A stretch of DNA of 64,000 bases from Lama guanicoe (taxonomy: Eukaryota): assembly GCA_013239625.1 (NCBI GenBank), contig MU053431.1:1638485-1702484 (forward strand), written 5' to 3'. This document shows positions 10,560 to 48,489 of this stretch, one piece after another. Positions within the stretch are counted from its first letter, which is position 1; each line of letters starts with the position of its first letter. Position numbers and translations under genes: made by a program. The notes below the pieces were generated by a model. That model made no database searches. It saw only the letters and a program-made list of their open reading frames with translations, and had not been told where the DNA came from.

Positions 10560-10840
10560 CTCTGGCTCGAGGCTATTTTTAACCTGCGTGTGGTAAGTGC
10601 ATTTCTTCAGGAAAACCACTCTCCTGATCAATCCCGCAGCTGCCGGCGTGGACACGCACTGGCCGGGCCGCCCAGGCTGTAACCGGAACCCAGCAGCTGA
10701 CCGGGGCAGGATAAATCCGGCTCCTTCGACAACTGTGTCCTGCTGGTCTTATCTAGTTACGGACACTCGTCCCCAGACCGCTGTGGCTCCTTAATATAAC
10801 TCTGAAATCACGCCTGGTGCCGGGGCAACAGCTGGGGCAG
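10560..10840. promoter_or_regulatory. candidate distal muscle enhancer
   Basis: Perfect MEF2 CTATTTTTAA (10573-10582). E-boxes CAGCTG (10637, 10694), CAACTG (10730) and AACAGCTG (10827-10834). GATA site TTATCT (10749-10754). Non-repetitive context. Confidence 0.45.
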
Positions 10841-13406: not shown

Positions 13407-14745
13407 TTTTTTTATTTTTTAATAAAATTAATGGACAGTTTTTGGGAGAAGTTTTAGGCTTACAGGAAAGTTGAGTGTAAAGTATAGAAAATTCTCACGT
13501 ATCCCTTCCCTCTTACTGGAGATTCGTGCTGGCGTGCTCGTCTGCTGTGATGACGAGCCAGTGCGGCGGACTGTTGTTAGCTGAAGTCCTCGGCCTCGCC
13601 AGGGCTCGCTCTGCGCGGTGCGTGTTCTGCGTGTTTGGATGCATGGAGGATGACACGTGTCCCTCTCACAGCGTCACACAGGGCAGCTTCGCGGCCCTAA
13701 AGCCTCTGTGCTCCATCTGTTCTTCCTTCCCTCCCCCCAACCCCTGGCAACCGCTCAGCTTTTTACTGTCTCCATAGTTTTTCCTTTTCCAAAATATCAT
13801 ACAGTTGGAGTCACACGTTTTCAGAATGGCTCCTTTCACTTAGTTAAGTGCATTTAAGGTTCGTCCATGTCCCTTCATGGCTTGATAGCTCATTTCTTTT
13901 TATCACTGAGTAATATTCCGCTGTCTGGATGGACCCCAGTGTATTCACCTGTTCACCTGCTGAAGGACACCTTGGCTGCTTCTGAGCTCCGGCAGCTATG
14001 AGCACAGCTGCGGTAAGCATCTGTGTGCAGGTGTCCGTGTGGGCGTGGGTTCTCATACACCAAGGCGCGCAACTGCCGGATCGCGTGGTGAGCGTGTGTT
14101 CACGCCTTCCAGAGTGGCTGCGCTGCTCCGCCTTCCCACCAGCTGCGACGGAGGGCGCCTGCTGCTCCGCAGCCTCGCCAGCACCTGACGTGCTGCTGCT
14201 CTGGGGTTCGCTTGTTCTAAGAGGAAGGTGGTGGAACCTCGTCGTTCTGACCTGCGTCTCTGAAGACGTGTGATGGCAAGCGTCTCCTCACGTGCTTGCT
14301 CTCACCTGCAGCTCAGCTCTGGTGCGGAGTCTCTCGGGGTCATCAGCCTGCTTCTACTTCTGGTTGTGTTTTTCCTTATGAGGTGTAAAGAGTTCTTCGT
14401 AAATACTGGGTAACGGATATGTGTTTATCCTTTATCACATTTTTTTTGAGGGGGAAGGTAATTAGGTTCATGTTTTAATTATTCATTTGATGGAGGTGCT
14501 GGGGGTTGAACCCGGGACCTCGTGCCTGCTAAGCATGCGCTCTACCGGTTGAGCTATACCCTCCCCCATCACGTGTGCTTTGAAAATACTTCCTCCCAAC
14601 CGTGACTCGTCCTTCCTTCTCTTAACAGCGCCTTTTGCAGAGCAGAACTTGAAATTTCGGTGCCACCAAGTCATCAGTCTTTTCTGTCACGGGTCGTGCT
14701 TTTGGTTGGTGTTGTATCTAAAAAGCCACCCCCCAAACCAAGTTC
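13407..14745 (-). mobile_element. old L1 (L1MC-like) 3' end, interrupted by the SINE
   Basis: T-rich tail, then TTTTAGGCTTACAGGAAAGTTGAGTGTAAAGTATAGA and CTGAGTAATATTCC...TATTCACCTGTTCACCTGCTGAAGGACAC, typical of L1M 3' UTR/ORF2-end. ORF 13844..14056 (-) gives the L1-like peptide KQPRCPSAGEQVNTLGSIQTAEYYSVIKRNEL. Confidence 0.8.
14441..14567 (-). mobile_element. tRNA-Ala-derived SINE (camelid Vic-1-like)
   Basis: The minus strand reads GGGGAGGGTATAGCTCAACCGGTAGAGCGCATGCTTAGCAGGCACGAGGTCCCGGGTTCAACCCCCAGCACCTCC...AACCTAATTACCTTCCCCC followed by an A-tail. It has pol III A and B boxes and an AGC anticodon-like loop. Flanked by ATCACAT / ATCACGT (TSD with 1 mismatch). Confidence 0.88.
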
Positions 14746-34189: not shown

Positions 34190-34470
34190 GGACTAAAAAT
34201 AGCAGGGGGACGGCAGGGCAGGGACAGCCGGTGGGAGGCCCGTGGGGAGGGGCCGGGAGGGGCAGCGGACGGACGGCAGCCGGGGCCCAGGACCGGCCGT
34301 CAATGGCGCTGGCGCACCCACCCTGTTCCCGGTGGCCGGCCAGCCGCGGCCCAGCTGACAGGCTATTTTTTCCCCTGCTTGACTAAATATGGTCAGGGAG
34401 CACAGCCCGAGGGGGCCGCTTGGCCAGGGCGCGTGTTTGGGATGCTTGGCCGGGTATATAAGGACTGCAA
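34190..34470 (+). promoter_or_regulatory. muscle-type promoter/proximal enhancer of the miR-1-1/133a-2 cluster
   Basis: Perfect MEF2 site CTAAAAATAG (34193-34202). E-box CAGCTG (34352-34357) overlapping TGACAG (MEIS-type). MEF2-like CTATTTTTTC (34363-34372). CArG-like CTAAATATGG (34383-34392, 1 mismatch). TATATAA (34455-34461). SRF, MEF2 and MyoD are the known regulators of this cluster. Confidence 0.75.
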
Positions 34471-35450: not shown

Positions 35451-38081
35451 AAGTGTGGCGAAACTTACCCTGGAACTTGCAGCAATAATGGTGGGGGTGC
35501 TGGGGGCAAGGGTCCTGGAGCAGAGGACATGGCGAGGCTCCCCCAGGTGGGGACTCTGGACTTCTGCGGCTCTCACAGCCAGGGTCAGAGTAGGGAGCTT
35601 CCCTGTGCTGGGCGTGCACAGCGGGGGCACATGTGGGCGGAGACTGGGGGCTGGAGGGGAAGCAGCCTGGTGGTCTTGGCGAGAGATCGCGACCTCCGCG
35701 GGGCTGGGGGCTGAGAGCTGGGAGCATTCACAGCTGGAGAGCCCCGGCCCGGGGCCTGGGGTCAGCTCACTGTGCCTCACAGGGTGCCCTTAGAGGTGAC
35801 TGGGTCCTCCTTTTCCATCAAGCAGGGAAACTTTTTCAAAAGTGGCTGTGGTTCATTTTTGAGTGGACAGAAGCTCGTGGGGGCTCTGGCTGGAACTGGG
35901 GTGACTCTCCTGCCCTTGGGGGCTCCCAACTTCCCTCTGACCTCCAGACACCATCCATATGAACGCCTGGGGGTGGGGGCGAGGGGGGTGTCCCAGGCCT
36001 GAGTCTTGGCCACTCTTCCCAGACTCCGAGGCCTCATTTGTCAGAGGGTAGAGAGGAAACTTAGACTTCATTCAAGGCTCTCTAGGGGCACCTCGAGGGG
36101 CCTGAGGAGAAGTGGGGGGCCCAGAGCTGTCTCAGTTTCCCTTTGTTATCCCTGGCTCCATGAAGATGACAAACAGCACAGTCACACAGAGATGGGACGT
36201 TGTGCCTCCATGTCCTGCTGGTGGCTCTTTCCTGTTAGTGGGGGTGCCCCCGGAGCCCTGACCACGCCCCGCCCCCATGTAAATGCCAGCCCGGCGGTGC
36301 CCGGTGCAGCTGCCAAGACCAGGGACTTGAGAAATTGCTCAGTTGCCTCTGTGTGATGCAGGCTCTGCAGACACTGCCCTGCCCAGGGTGGTGGCTGCAT
36401 CTGGACACCCTTCTGGCCCATCCACAGGGACCAGTGGGCTGCTCAGTGCGGAGGGGTGGGCAGGGTCACCCCGGATCTCATCTTGCTGATGGAGGAAGAA
36501 TTGGAAGTCCACTCTGGCCCAGGGCCTCGTCCTCAGGCCAGGGTCAGCTCCCAGCCACACAAGACCTGGGCCCAGAGTGCAGACCCTCTGTGTTTGCACC
36601 TGGCCTGGCTCCTGGCCCCCAGGTGTGTCCTGCAGTCAGTGACACCCTCCTTCCAGGTCCCACCACTCACCTGTGGGTCCTACCTGGGCCACGGCAAGGC
36701 CTCCCCATCCCATGCTGCTCCTGACACCCCGAGGGCTCCTCTGGCTTCCCGGGCCAGCTCAGGCTGGGGCGGTGCCCCTTCCTGCGGTGGGGACCTGACC
36801 AAGGTCCCGTTGTTGCTCTCCTTCAGGTCTCCGTGGTCTTCAACCTCCTGGCTTCGTGGTGGCCATAGAAAGTGAGGGGGCCGAGGGGCCTCTCCTGCTC
36901 CATCACAGGGAAATTTTGAAATGCAGTGGAAAACAATATCGATACAATTAAATATTCCAAAGTGCTTAGTTTGCCGCTTGCTAAGTTTACTTAAACCCTC
37001 TTTAACGGGTTCATTAGAAGCAGTGAGCTCAGGGGAAACTCATTAACAGGAAGGCGGCCCCTGCGTTTGACTGTAAATTGGTATTGATCAGGCCCGGCAG
37101 AGGCTGGGCGCAGGCCACAAAGAGCCAGGTGAGGTCCGGCCGCCTGGGTGCCTGGGCCACCCCGGATGCCCGAGCAAGCCGCCCGCTGGCGCAAGCATCG
37201 TTTCAGGTGGTGATGCACCAGGAGTGAAGGGGAGAGAAAGGGTGAAGAAGAGAGAGAGGGAGGGAGGGAGTCAGAGGAGGCGGCGGCCAGAGTGGGGGAG
37301 CCAAGCCGGCACCAGTCCCTCGCCGGCTGGGCGTCTGCTCCATGGTCAGGCCAAGGCGCGGAGAAGCTGGCTGCAGCACAGGCCACTTCTCAGTAACTCC
37401 CAGCCGCCCTCCAGGGACACAAGGTCCACCTGCAACTGCCCTTCTCAGCACATCTTCAAAGACAGAGGCATAAGCCCCGCCCTCAGGGGAGCTGGCTCTT
37501 GGGAGACTGAAGCACCAGGGACCTGCCCGGGAAGCCACCCAGCTGCCCAGGTAAGGCCTGTCCACCTCTCAATCGTCTGCACTTATGGGGAGGGGGGCCA
37601 GGCTCCCTGCTGGCTCTGGCCGCCTGTTCCCTGACCGCTTGTGGCCAGGTCCTCCTGAGCGGCTGGACAGGGGTGCCCCGGTGGAGAGGAAGGGTGCTGG
37701 TGGAGGCCCGGGCACCGCCTCGGGGAGGGAATGTCACACCCTTCTCGGCGCGAGGGTGGGAGGGGGCAGCCTGACTCCTTTCTTGTGTCATTGATGCAAA
37801 ACTAAATGACTGTGGGGGTGATCGGAGGGACGCGTGAGTCTTTCTGGAGCGCACGGTCTCTCTGCCCTTCTGAACTGGGTGTGTGCCTGTGGGAGGGGGA
37901 CAGAGGGACGAGGAGGTCAGAGAGGGGCAGGGGGCCGTGGAGCCTGGGTGATGACCAGGGCTGCAGCGGCGGGTGTGCGGGCTCCACGCACCGGGAGGCT
38001 CCAGGGCTTGGATCCCCTGGGAACCCACAGCCTTCTTTCTCCCCCGTGGCCCCCCAGCCCACAAACTCTGCCCATTGAACT

Positions 38082-38162
38082 ACCTGCTTGGGAAACATAC
38101 TTCTTTATGTGCCCATATGGACCTGCTAAGTTATGGAATGTAAAGAAGTGTGTATTCCAGGT
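38082..38162 (+). ncRNA. MIR1-1: microRNA miR-1-1 precursor hairpin (5p 38095-38116; mature 3p 38134-38155)
   Basis: Sequence TGGGAAACATACTTCTTTATGTGCCCATATGGACCTGCTAAGTTATGGAATGTAAAGAAGTGTGTATTCCAG. The arms base-pair into a hairpin. The 3p arm TGGAATGTAAAGAAGTGTGTAT carries the miR-1/206 seed GGAATGT. The loop TGGACCTGCTAAG and the 5' flank TGGGAAAC match the miR-1-1 paralogue rather than miR-1-2 or miR-206. Confidence 0.97.
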
Positions 38163-41100
38163 CAGGACCCTCTCGCCGGAGGCAGGGGCCGCCCGGGGCA
38201 GGCAGGCGGCGGCTGTGGCGGGTGAGGCCTTGGTGGCAGGCCGCCTGAGTGTCGGTGGCCGGCCTGTCCCCGCCGGTATTGTTCTGTCACTTTGCCTGTG
38301 TCAGCAGGTGGAAGCGTTCATCAGACATTAAATATTCAGCGTGCTGACTGCGGCGGAGGGAAGGCGGCCTGTGGCAGGCGTGGGGTCCGCCGGGGGGGAA
38401 CATGCCGGGGCTGGGGGTGCGAGGCCTTGGCTGAGGAACGTGGGGTGGCAGTGGCCCTGGGGTGTCACTTGGTGCCACCCCAGAAGGGGTCACTTTCCAG
38501 CAGAAAGGGCCGTCTGCATGATGGGGGCTGAAAACCACTCAGAGGCCAAGCAAAGCAGCTTGTCCCCCATCGGCTGGGCGGCCGCAGGGAGGGAAGGGAC
38601 TCACGGGCGCATGCGAGAGGCTTTTTGAGGGAAAGACACTTGGTCTTTGCTCTCAGGCCGCCTGCAAGGCACAGTGTCTCGTAGTTTGGCCTCCTGGGGG
38701 CTTAGAGGCACCTGCAGCCCTCAGCCCGGCCCCTGCTCTGAAATCCCCCAGACCAGCATTTTGAGGCACCTCAGGTGCCTGTGAAGCTTCAGACAAGAAA
38801 CCAAAGGGGCTGTGTGTCTCTCACCTCGGCCTGCCTCCCGCCCCACCCCTGTCAAAGCCCCACACTGCTCTCCTCTGTTTTTAGCAACTCTGGTTGGAAG
38901 CGCTTTGTGGTAGGAAGGACAGCTGGGTCACACGGGCTGGCATCGTGCAGACCAGGACCACCCACCTGCCCTGCCACCAGCCAGGTCTCAGTCAGGACGG
39001 GGGCAGGGTGATGTCCTGAAGGTCCCACGGCTGGACCAGGACTGCCAGGGGACAAGGTCAGGTGCTGTGACTGGTCTCTGAAGCCTGTCTCCGCAGTGCC
39101 AGCCCTTCTCTGGGGAGGCAAAGGGCAGGGGTCCTGGGCAGCTGGCGGGGGCTGGGCATCTGTGGGAGGGGGTCCCTGTCCCATCTGGCTGCTGGAGCGG
39201 TGGCACCTGCAGCCTGGGGTGAGTCCCCCGTGGGCCGCAGGGCTGTTTTCCCAGAGTGTGTGTCAGCTCTGCCTTTCCCGGCACTGATGCCCAGACCCAC
39301 GGCAGGTGCCCCAGCCCTTCCTGCACCCTGACCTTTGGCAGGAATTTGGCTCTTGGGTGGAGTGTGGGCTGGGGGAGGAGGGGGTGAGCAGGTCTGGGGG
39401 GCAGCCAGGTTCCCTGAGCCACTCAGGCCCCTCCAAGGAGCCAGGGCACAAGCAGGTGTGGGCAGTTCCAAGCTTGCATGTGGCTCCCACCTTCCAAGGA
39501 GTTGATGGTAATTGAGGGTCCAGGAGGGCTGGGTGGCCTGGGGCCGCTGCCCAGTTTTCAGGTCTCACCACCTCTGGCTCCGCTGACACCCACAGCGGGG
39601 AGGTAGGCCTGTCCTCGGGCACCGCCTTCCTTCCGGCCCCTGGGCCCAGAGCTCAGCATGCCCGGGAAGGTCATCTCTGCCCTGCCCGCTTCCAGCTCCG
39701 GCCGCAGGGAGGGAAGTAGCCAGGTGCAGCCACGGAGGCCGGCCGCAGACACGCGCTCTCTCCCCCTCGATGCGTCCCGCTGCACATTAAGGCTTTATGG
39801 CAGGATGTGGTGTTTAAATAAAAGCATTAGTGTTTTGGAATTAGGTTTGGCTGAGCAGTAAAACTGGAGAGTTTGCAGAGAGAAGAGGCATGGCCCTCTG
39901 AGCCGTAAGTCACCGCGGGTCTCTCATCTGCCGAGTTAAAAGTGGGCAGCCCTCGGACGCCTCCCTGCAGCAGGCAGAGCCCCTTCCTGGCGTGCGCCCC
40001 TTGCACAGAGGTCTTGCTGCCTCTCTGTGACACTGACCCCGCTGGGATGTTCTGTACTCAAAGCTGCAGCTCTTGGCTCTCCAGGGGGGCAGCTGGCGAG
40101 GACCCCGCTAGCAAGGGTGGGTTCCTCCGAGTAGGGTCTTGGGCCTTTCTGTGTCCAGGAGTGCAGAGGCAGGAGGGAACGGTGTCTGTGCTCTGCCTGG
40201 AGGGCTTCTGCTGGACAGGTACCCTTCCAGACACGCTGCCCTCTGGGCTCTAGGACTCCAGCAGAGGGAAAAGAAGCTGGCTGTGCCGGGCAGGGTGCAA
40301 GCGGGATGGCCCCACATTCAGGGGGCTTGCCTGACGTCGTGGGGCCCCAGGGGGGTTTTGTGCGGCTGTGGGGAGAAACCCAGGTTGGGCGAGGGGGTCA
40401 GTGCCCCTTTCTCTGTGCTCTGAGAGAGGGGTGGCTCCTGAATTTTCTGAAAACACTCTGGGGACTTGGTGTGGGGCAGCAGGCCCCCGCTCCTGCAGGT
40501 GGAAACAGTCGAAGAGTGGTGGGGCCATCAATTCGGGGCCAAATCAGTGAGATTCTCCTGCGCTGCTGCCCACAGACTCCAGCCTCGCTCCAAGCGAGAC
40601 TCCCGCCCTGGAGGACGGCCAGCTCCGGGTCGGGGGAGGGTCGAGGCGTGCGCAGCTGTGTCGTGCACAGAGGGCCAGGTGGCCTCGCACAGCGTGGCTC
40701 TGCTTCTGAAGGGCGGCCGGTGGCTCCTGCTGGATGGCGCGTCAGGTGCGAGGAAGCACTTCGTTGCCGAGGCTTCCCAGCTGGGTGGGGGCGGCCGGTG
40801 GTGGCATCTTGGGGTGCGAATTAGCGGTCTCTTCTGAAACTGGCAGCCTCCTGTGGAAAACGTCCTGTTGGAGAACAAACTGCTTGAGATGATTAGACTG
40901 ACCCGCAGCCCACGTCAATCAAAGCGAACACGGCTTGAATTGCAAATCCCTTGCCCTAAAGTGCCCTAAATGAAAAATAAGGGAACCTGAGTAATTTTAG
41001 GGCCAGGGTGCGGCGGGGACGATGGGGCCTGGAGCCGTTTGGGGGCTGGGAAGGTGGAGTGGGCGGGGCCAGGGCAGTGGGCGGGGCCAGAGTTTGCATT

Positions 41101-48387: not shown

Positions 48388-48489
48388 GGGACACAAATGC
48401 TTTGCTAAAGCTGGTAAAATGGAACCAAATCAACTGTTCAATGGATTTGGTCCCCTTCAACCAGCTGTAGCTGCGCATTGATGGCGCCG
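48388..48489 (+). ncRNA. MIR133A2: microRNA miR-133a-2 precursor hairpin (5p 48409-48430; mature 3p 48446-48467)
   Basis: The 5p arm AGCTGGTAAAATGGAACCAAAT and the 3p arm TTTGGTCCCCTTCAACCAGCTG are the canonical miR-133a arms. The 3' flank TAGCTGCGCATTGATGGCGCCG and the position ~10 kb downstream of miR-1-1 identify the 133a-2 copy. Confidence 0.97.

What the first reader, a model, noticed from the sequence alone, without database searches (positions are those of the whole stretch)
38134..38155. Non-canonical mature miR-1: G at position 17, shared with miR-206
Seen: the 3p arm is UGGAAUGUAAAGAAGUGUGUAU (G at 38150). Known: the usual mammalian miR-1 is UGGAAUGUAAAGAAGUAUGUAU, and miR-206 (UGGAAUGUAAGGAAGUGUGUGG) has G17. 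From memory, rat miR-1 is also annotated with G17, which would make this a convergent change. The seed is intact and the change only turns an A-U pair into a G:U wobble with U38098. Inference: if miR-1-2 keeps A17, this species makes two distinguishable miR-1 products, giving a natural barcode for locus-specific output and possibly altered 3' pairing or stability.
Basis: partly seen in the sequence, partly recalled or inferred. Interest (0 to 1): 0.7.

Follow-up and report, generated by a model that had tools for sequence, protein, structure and literature searches.

The report
Camelid miR-1-1 with rat-like 3′ change
One of this camelid's two genes for the muscle microRNA miR-1 differs from the other by one letter near its tail, the same letter already known from the opposite gene copy in rats, and the change is likely harmless, though it would let reads from the two genes be counted apart.

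Summary
Confirmed. G38150 is position 17 of the 3p arm of a genuine mir-1 hairpin and pairs G:U with T38098. Synteny makes it miR-1-1: GATA5-like exon upstream, miR-133a 10.3 kb downstream. The genome's miR-1-2 keeps A17 and differs only there. Sheep has A17 at both loci, so G17 is not the artiodactyl norm.

The mature sequence is already known. It equals rno-miR-1-3p and a guinea-pig miR-1-3p, and rat A17/G17 products are already counted separately. Rat's G17 hairpin carries a miR-1-2-type 5p arm, so the camelid change arose independently in the other paralog. I found no paper reporting it in camelids.

The simplest mechanism is structural tolerance. Position 17 faces an invariant U: A→G costs 0.0 kcal/mol, C or U about 4. 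It also lies outside positions 12–15, which drive miR-1's modest 3′ pairing. The change is likely near-neutral.

No read-level view of the base was obtained. Sampled-word shares in other genomes fit a shared allele but do not prove it. Expression is untested.

The parts
38083..38166 (+). pri-miR-1-1 hairpin including the basal stem
   Evidence: Pair table; Rfam RF00103 at 38086-38162, 72.6 bits; fold z -4.10
38134..38155 (+). Mature miR-1-3p arm (ends inferred from homology), G17 form
   Evidence: same letters as rno-miR-1-3p printed in PMC9253985 and PMC5557765 supplement
38150..38150 (+). G at mature position 17 (A in miR-1-2, G in miR-206)
38095..38117 (+). Predicted 5p (star) arm; T38098 is the wobble partner of G17
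   Evidence: Pair table with a 2-nt overhang assumed; ends not measured
38131..38131 (+). Loop T three bases before the mature arm, where miR-1-2, miR-206 and the Rfam consensus have C
   Evidence: unpaired in the MFE structure
48402..48473 (+). miR-133a-2 hairpin, cluster partner 10.3 kb downstream
   Evidence: Rfam RF00446, 87.6 bits; 3p arm identical to the miR-133a-1 copy
34193..34392 (+). Likely muscle regulatory element about 3.9 kb upstream: a perfect MEF2 consensus at 34193-34202, with an E-box and a CArG-like word within 200 bases
   Evidence: MEF2 pattern 4 matches in the window against 0.03 expected; neighbouring words read by eye; motifs recalled; function untested

Best explanation
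This is the camelid miR-1-1 gene, whose predicted mature product carries G where miR-1-2 carries A at position 17, likely a real germline change shared among related camelids and likely near-neutral because the hairpin tolerates it. Shown: the base, the G:U pair, the paralog identity by synteny and 5p arm, A17 in miR-1-2, and identity with the rat G17 product, which comes from the other paralog. Computed: position 17 faces a U in all three family hairpins, so A and G are energetically interchangeable (0.0 kcal/mol) while C or U cost about 4. Inferred: A-to-G is the one change at this site that processing does not see. The seed is untouched and position 17 is peripheral to miR-1's weak 3' pairing, and a second A17 locus buffers the change, so it can drift to fixation and recur in separate lineages. 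The locus would be transcribed with miR-133a-2 in striated muscle and would give a G17 product that represses essentially the same targets as the A17 product.
For: Synteny: a GATA-N exon 53 kb upstream on the same contig (its N-terminus reads as GATA5 by recall) and miR-133a 10.3 kb downstream. The A17 copy lies antisense beside MIB_HERC2 exons with miR-133a 3.3 kb downstream. Folding: -39.6 kcal/mol with either A or G, -35.3 with C and -35.7 with U, the same pattern in all 3 of 3 hairpins; duplex and end stabilities unchanged. Recurrence: rat and guinea pig. The rat 5p arm matches the miR-1-2 type. In PMC8940178 passages, miR-1 3' pairing is 'more modest' and mismatches matter most at 12-15. 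In primates 15 of 188 ortholog groups vary in the mature arm, mostly at 9-12 and 17-23 (PMC5480830 passages). Rat miR-1-3p and miR-1b move together (log2FC -2.10 and -2.56; -4.46 and -3.97). 16 of 24 listed runs, from 5 coded organisms, hold 0.94-0.98 of 86 sampled words over 37700-38500.
Against: No run reaches 1.00. The 13 best all sit at 0.98, which is 84 of 86 words. One base difference removes 3.5 words on average and two or fewer with probability 0.31, so a private difference at 38150 is not excluded. 11 of those 13 runs are flagged as possible sources; only 5 of the 16 runs, in 4 studies, are not. No camelid small-RNA read of miR-1 was seen. Nearest-neighbour energies overrate wobbles in miRNA-target 3' pairing and say nothing about Drosha or Dicer kinetics. 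PMC8940178 also reports that pairing to miRNA G residues is favoured. The A17/A17 state in mouse and sheep shows some constraint. Only one other artiodactyl was seen.
Confidence: 0.78

Rival explanations
1. G17 is functionally distinct. It extends a UG run in the 3' half (from one to two repeats; miR-206 has three) and would bring a miR-206-like tail into the heart, where miR-206 is not expressed. That could change binding by UG-reading proteins such as TDP-43, turnover, or 3'-supplementary pairing, and could be favoured by selection.
For: UG-run lengths. [quoted passage not shown] The same change has arisen at least twice independently. TDP-43's preference for UG repeats is recalled.
Against: In that paper A17 miR-1 and G17 miR-206 compete for the same complex, and the sections read map no binding site. 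G17 creates no GG, CG or GC dinucleotide, the feature linked to strong 3' pairing. Recurrence is expected at the only free substitution. Rat A17 and G17 products co-vary.
Confidence: 0.09
2. G17 is a private or segregating allele of the sequenced animal, not a lineage trait.
For: All 13 best runs lack two sampled words, which one private base could explain.
Against: That base could be any of 801. A lineage change at this site has precedents in rat and guinea pig. Four coded organisms sit at the same share.
Confidence: 0.08
3. Assembly or consensus error at 38150.
For: No read-level view was obtained, and the assembly is fragmented (55,231 contigs).
Against: No N in the window. No homopolymer at the site. 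No discordance in 8 of 8 control paralog loci. The change is the one substitution that keeps pairing and reproduces a known natural sequence.
Confidence: 0.03
4. G17 was copied from miR-206 by non-allelic gene conversion.
For: The three hairpins share 56 of 94 alignment columns and miR-206 has G17.
Against: Positions 11 and 21 keep the miR-1 state, so a tract would be at most 9 nt. The loci lie on different contigs. A single transition explains the change.
Confidence: 0.02

Closest known systems
Rat rno-miR-1-3p (G17) and rno-miR-1b (A17)
   Same: Identical 22-nt G17 product beside an A17 product with the same seed; counted as separate features in arrays and sequencing.
   Different: The rat G17 hairpin has a miR-1-2-type 5p arm. 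Here G17 is in miR-1-1 and miR-1-2 keeps A17, so the pattern is mirrored and the origin independent.
Guinea-pig miR-1-3p (cavPor3 scaffold 119 entry, PMC6945544 table)
   Same: Same G17 mature sequence printed from small-RNA data.
   Different: Which paralog it comes from, and whether an A17 copy remains, could not be read from the table or the supplement.
Mouse and sheep miR-1-1/miR-133a-2 cluster
   Same: Same cluster anatomy; sheep shows the same 10-kb spacing to miR-133a.
   Different: Both loci give identical A17 products there.
miR-206 (same family)
   Same: Same seed, and G17 in a G:U wobble against the same 5p U.
   Different: Differs at 11, 21 and 22; separate locus clustered with a miR-133b-like hairpin about 4.2 kb downstream.

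Membership tests
MIR-1 family (Rfam RF00103) | Covariance-model score above the gathering threshold | tested here: met
   72.6 bits against 45.6
MIR-1 family (Rfam RF00103) | Intact seed on the 3p arm of a stable hairpin | tested here: met
   Positions 1-10 identical in all three family hairpins; z -4.10
MIR-1 family (Rfam RF00103) | Expressed and processed, with homogeneous 5' ends and star reads | not testable with these tools
   No camelid muscle small-RNA data were reached
miR-1-1 ortholog | GATA5-linked locus with miR-133a about 10 kb downstream | tested here: met
   the GATA5 name and the GATA5 linkage are recalled; the 10-kb spacing is seen in the sheep table
miR-1-2 ortholog | Antisense to MIB1 with miR-133a about 3 kb downstream, and a miR-1-2-type 5p arm | tested here: not met
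   These features belong to the other locus, L002; the MIB1 linkage is recalled
miR-206 | G11, a GG 3' end and linkage to miR-133b | tested here: not met
   The window has A11, A21 and T22; L003 is the miR-206 locus
Rat-type A17/G17 miR-1 pair | Two miR-1 loci whose products differ only at position 17 | tested here: met
   (genomic level only)
Rat-type A17/G17 miR-1 pair | G17 carried by the miR-1-2 paralog, as in rat | tested here: not met
   Here it is on miR-1-1
Camelidae (host genome) | Germline VHH genes with the framework-2 hallmark | tested here: met
   A recalled degenerate motif has 6 exact matches and 0 in the reversed control; species not determined

The most novel reading that the evidence does not exclude
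Position 17 of miR-1 is a recurrent, selected toggle. Camelids (miR-1-1), rat (miR-1-2) and perhaps guinea pig have each converted one of two copies to a miR-206-like, UG-rich tail, giving the heart a second miR-1 species with different TDP-43 binding, turnover or 3' targeting. Camelids and rat would then be mirror-image natural experiments on what each locus contributes.
Probability: 0.07. Interest if true: 0.55.

Novelty: new member of a known kind. Interest (0 to 1): 0.22.

Why it matters
The value is mostly practical. In camelid muscle or heart data, exact matching to human or bovine miR-1 would likely drop or under-read the miR-1-1 product. In sheep heart, which makes only A17, the G17 array probe read 9.74 against 14.67 for the A17 probe, about 30-fold if those values are log2. 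Counting A17 and G17 reads would give miR-1-1 against miR-1-2 output on the guide strand without knockouts. Rat already offers this for the opposite paralog, and mouse knockouts already give about half for miR-1-2 in heart, so no long-standing question is newly opened. As evolution, it is a clear case of convergence at the one structurally free site in a deeply conserved miRNA.

Tried and rejected
Read-level check: none obtained, so error or polymorphism at 38150 stays open.

Camelid miR-1 in print: searches and the exact-sequence search (17 papers, none camelid by title) found none. The alpaca skin paper has no miR-1 row in its main text or in 4 readable supplements; its file 4 is an unreadable scan. 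The camel kidney paper's 2 supplements have none. MirMachine passages give no sequence; its supplements were listed but not read. bioRxiv supplements were closed.

Papers not held: three ids recalled from memory. The per-position substitution profile of MirGeneDB and the reported direct miR-1 binding to Kir2.1 are therefore recalled only and not used as evidence; one search did not find the latter.

Other hits dropped: five further matches to the 16-nt family pattern (L006, L008-L011) form no miRNA hairpin. The top 30 V-set loci held no heavy-chain motif, so a direct motif search was used. The strict CArG scan was at chance level (1 match against 1.18 expected).

Ideas considered: CpG decay is rejected, because the site is not a CpG. 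GC-biased gene conversion is possible in 66%-GC flanks but untested, and the loop change runs the other way. A-to-I editing is not needed, because the G is genomic.

Full report
Observation. The 22 bases at 38134-38155 are the 3p arm of a mir-1 hairpin, and 38150, position 17, is G. Rfam scores the hairpin at 72.6 bits against a gathering score of 45.6. It folds at -40.1 kcal/mol with z = -4.10 and 0 of 200 shuffles as stable.

Which gene. A DNA search of the own genome found three family hairpins. A 16-nt pattern found these three and five more matches that form no miRNA hairpin and were dropped. The window's copy has a GATA-N exon 53 kb upstream, whose N-terminus I recognise from memory as GATA5, and miR-133a 10.3 kb downstream. 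It is miR-1-1. The second copy (L002) lies antisense beside MIB_HERC2 exons with miR-133a 3.3 kb downstream. It is miR-1-2 and has A17. The third (L003) is miR-206, with a miR-133b-like hairpin about 4.2 kb downstream. The two miR-1 arms differ only at 17; miR-1-1 differs from miR-206 at 11, 21 and 22. The genome is camelid: a recalled VHH framework-2 motif has 6 exact matches and 0 in the reversed control. I did not determine the species.

Is the base real? No read-level view was obtained. Of 24 listed runs, 16 hold at least half of 86 sampled words over 37700-38500: 13 at 0.98 and 3 at 0.94, from five coded organisms. Eleven are flagged as possible sources; the other five come from four studies. 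A share of 0.98 is 84 of 86 words, and one base difference removes 3.5 words on average, two or fewer with probability 0.31. These runs therefore differ from the assembly at about one base at most, and that base could be 38150. My inference is that it probably is not: it is one of 801 positions, the site is not error-prone on its face, and lineage changes at this site are on record. Eight of eight control loci (3 miR-9, 3 miR-124, 2 miR-133a) show no discordance among paralogs. I put error plus private allele at about 11%.

What is known. The G17 sequence is printed in 17 papers, mostly on rat (search listing). PMC9253985 lists rno-miR-1-3p with G17 and rno-miR-1b with A17 side by side (passage). 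PMC13706966 states that they differ at one nucleotide, share a seed, are separate array features and changed in the same direction (passages). PMC9798022 found both up-regulated and blocked both (passages). The rat 5p arm printed in the PMC5557765 supplement has the miR-1-2-type base, matching mmu-miR-1a-2-5p and L002, not the window (compared by eye). Rat G17 is therefore in miR-1-2 and camelid G17 in miR-1-1: independent origins. A guinea-pig table also prints G17, paralog unknown (PMC6945544 passage and supplement search). Sheep has A17 at both loci (PMC5557765 table), and mouse makes identical products from both (PMC3833424 passage). My searches found no camelid miR-1 sequence in print; a scanned alpaca supplement and the bioRxiv supplements could not be seen.

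How it most likely works. In all three hairpins position 17 faces a U. Swapping A and G changes neither the hairpin energy (-39.6 in miR-1-1), the duplex energy nor the end stabilities, while C or U cost about 4 kcal/mol and open the pair. A-to-G is thus the only change at this site that the structure does not see, which explains both the recurrence and the match to miR-206. On the target side the seed is intact. For miR-1, 3' pairing is modest and most sensitive at 12-15 (PMC8940178 passages), and G17 creates no GG, CG or GC dinucleotide. Across primates 15 of 188 ortholog groups vary in the mature arm, mostly at 9-12 and 17-23 (PMC5480830 passages). A second A17 locus buffers any small loss. 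A MEF2 consensus with neighbouring muscle-type motifs lies 3.9 kb upstream, consistent with an active locus, but expression is untested. Shown: base, pairing, orthology and identity with the rat product. Computed: energetic neutrality. Inferred: fixation, expression and near-neutrality.

Against this reading. Energy models overrate wobbles in target pairing, and pairing to miRNA G residues is favoured. G17 lengthens a UG run and makes the tail more miR-206-like. TDP-43 binds this family and limits RISC loading, though both A17 miR-1 and G17 miR-206 compete for it and the sections read map no site (PMC4022891, abstract and sections 20 and 25). Since miR-206 is skeletal-muscle-specific, the heart is where a G17 product would be new. 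Gene conversion from miR-206 would need a tract of at most 9 nt and is unlikely.

Verdict. The kind of thing is known from rat, the barcode is already in routine use there, and the evidence points to a tolerated change. It is a new member of a known kind with a useful practical warning: probes and exact matching discriminate this base (9.74 against 14.67 on a sheep-heart array). Interest 0.22.

Noticed in passing
window 38131: A second difference in the same hairpin: T in the loop, three bases before the mature arm, where miR-1-2, miR-206 and the Rfam consensus have C. It is unpaired in the fold but close to the predicted Dicer cut.
   Followed up: partly
window 34193-34392: A perfect MEF2 consensus with an E-box, a second MEF2-like word and a CArG-like word, about 3.9 kb upstream of miR-1-1; likely the muscle promoter or enhancer. 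Three more MEF2-pattern matches lie at 10573, 30299 and 51989.
   Followed up: partly
window 14491-14563 (-): A tRNA-like head with an A-rich tail, single in the window. By recall it resembles the camelid tRNA-Ala-derived SINE Vic-1; probably not a tRNA gene.
   Followed up: no
L003 (G000:C5730, about 23436835-23436892): The miR-206 5p arm is identical to both miR-1 5p arms over 14 consecutive columns and pairs almost perfectly (-48 kcal/mol). By recall the human arm has one more wobble there, so this may be a second camelid change.
   Followed up: no
window 37700-38500: Thirteen runs from four coded organisms all stop at a share of 0.98 and none reaches 1.00, which suggests one assembly-private base or an index ceiling somewhere in this stretch.
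   Followed up: partly
L059 (G000:C866:2093820-2093891): A miR-124 paralog lies on the same contig, about 0.42 Mb beyond miR-1-1, in line with the recalled human 20q13.33 gene order.
   Followed up: no
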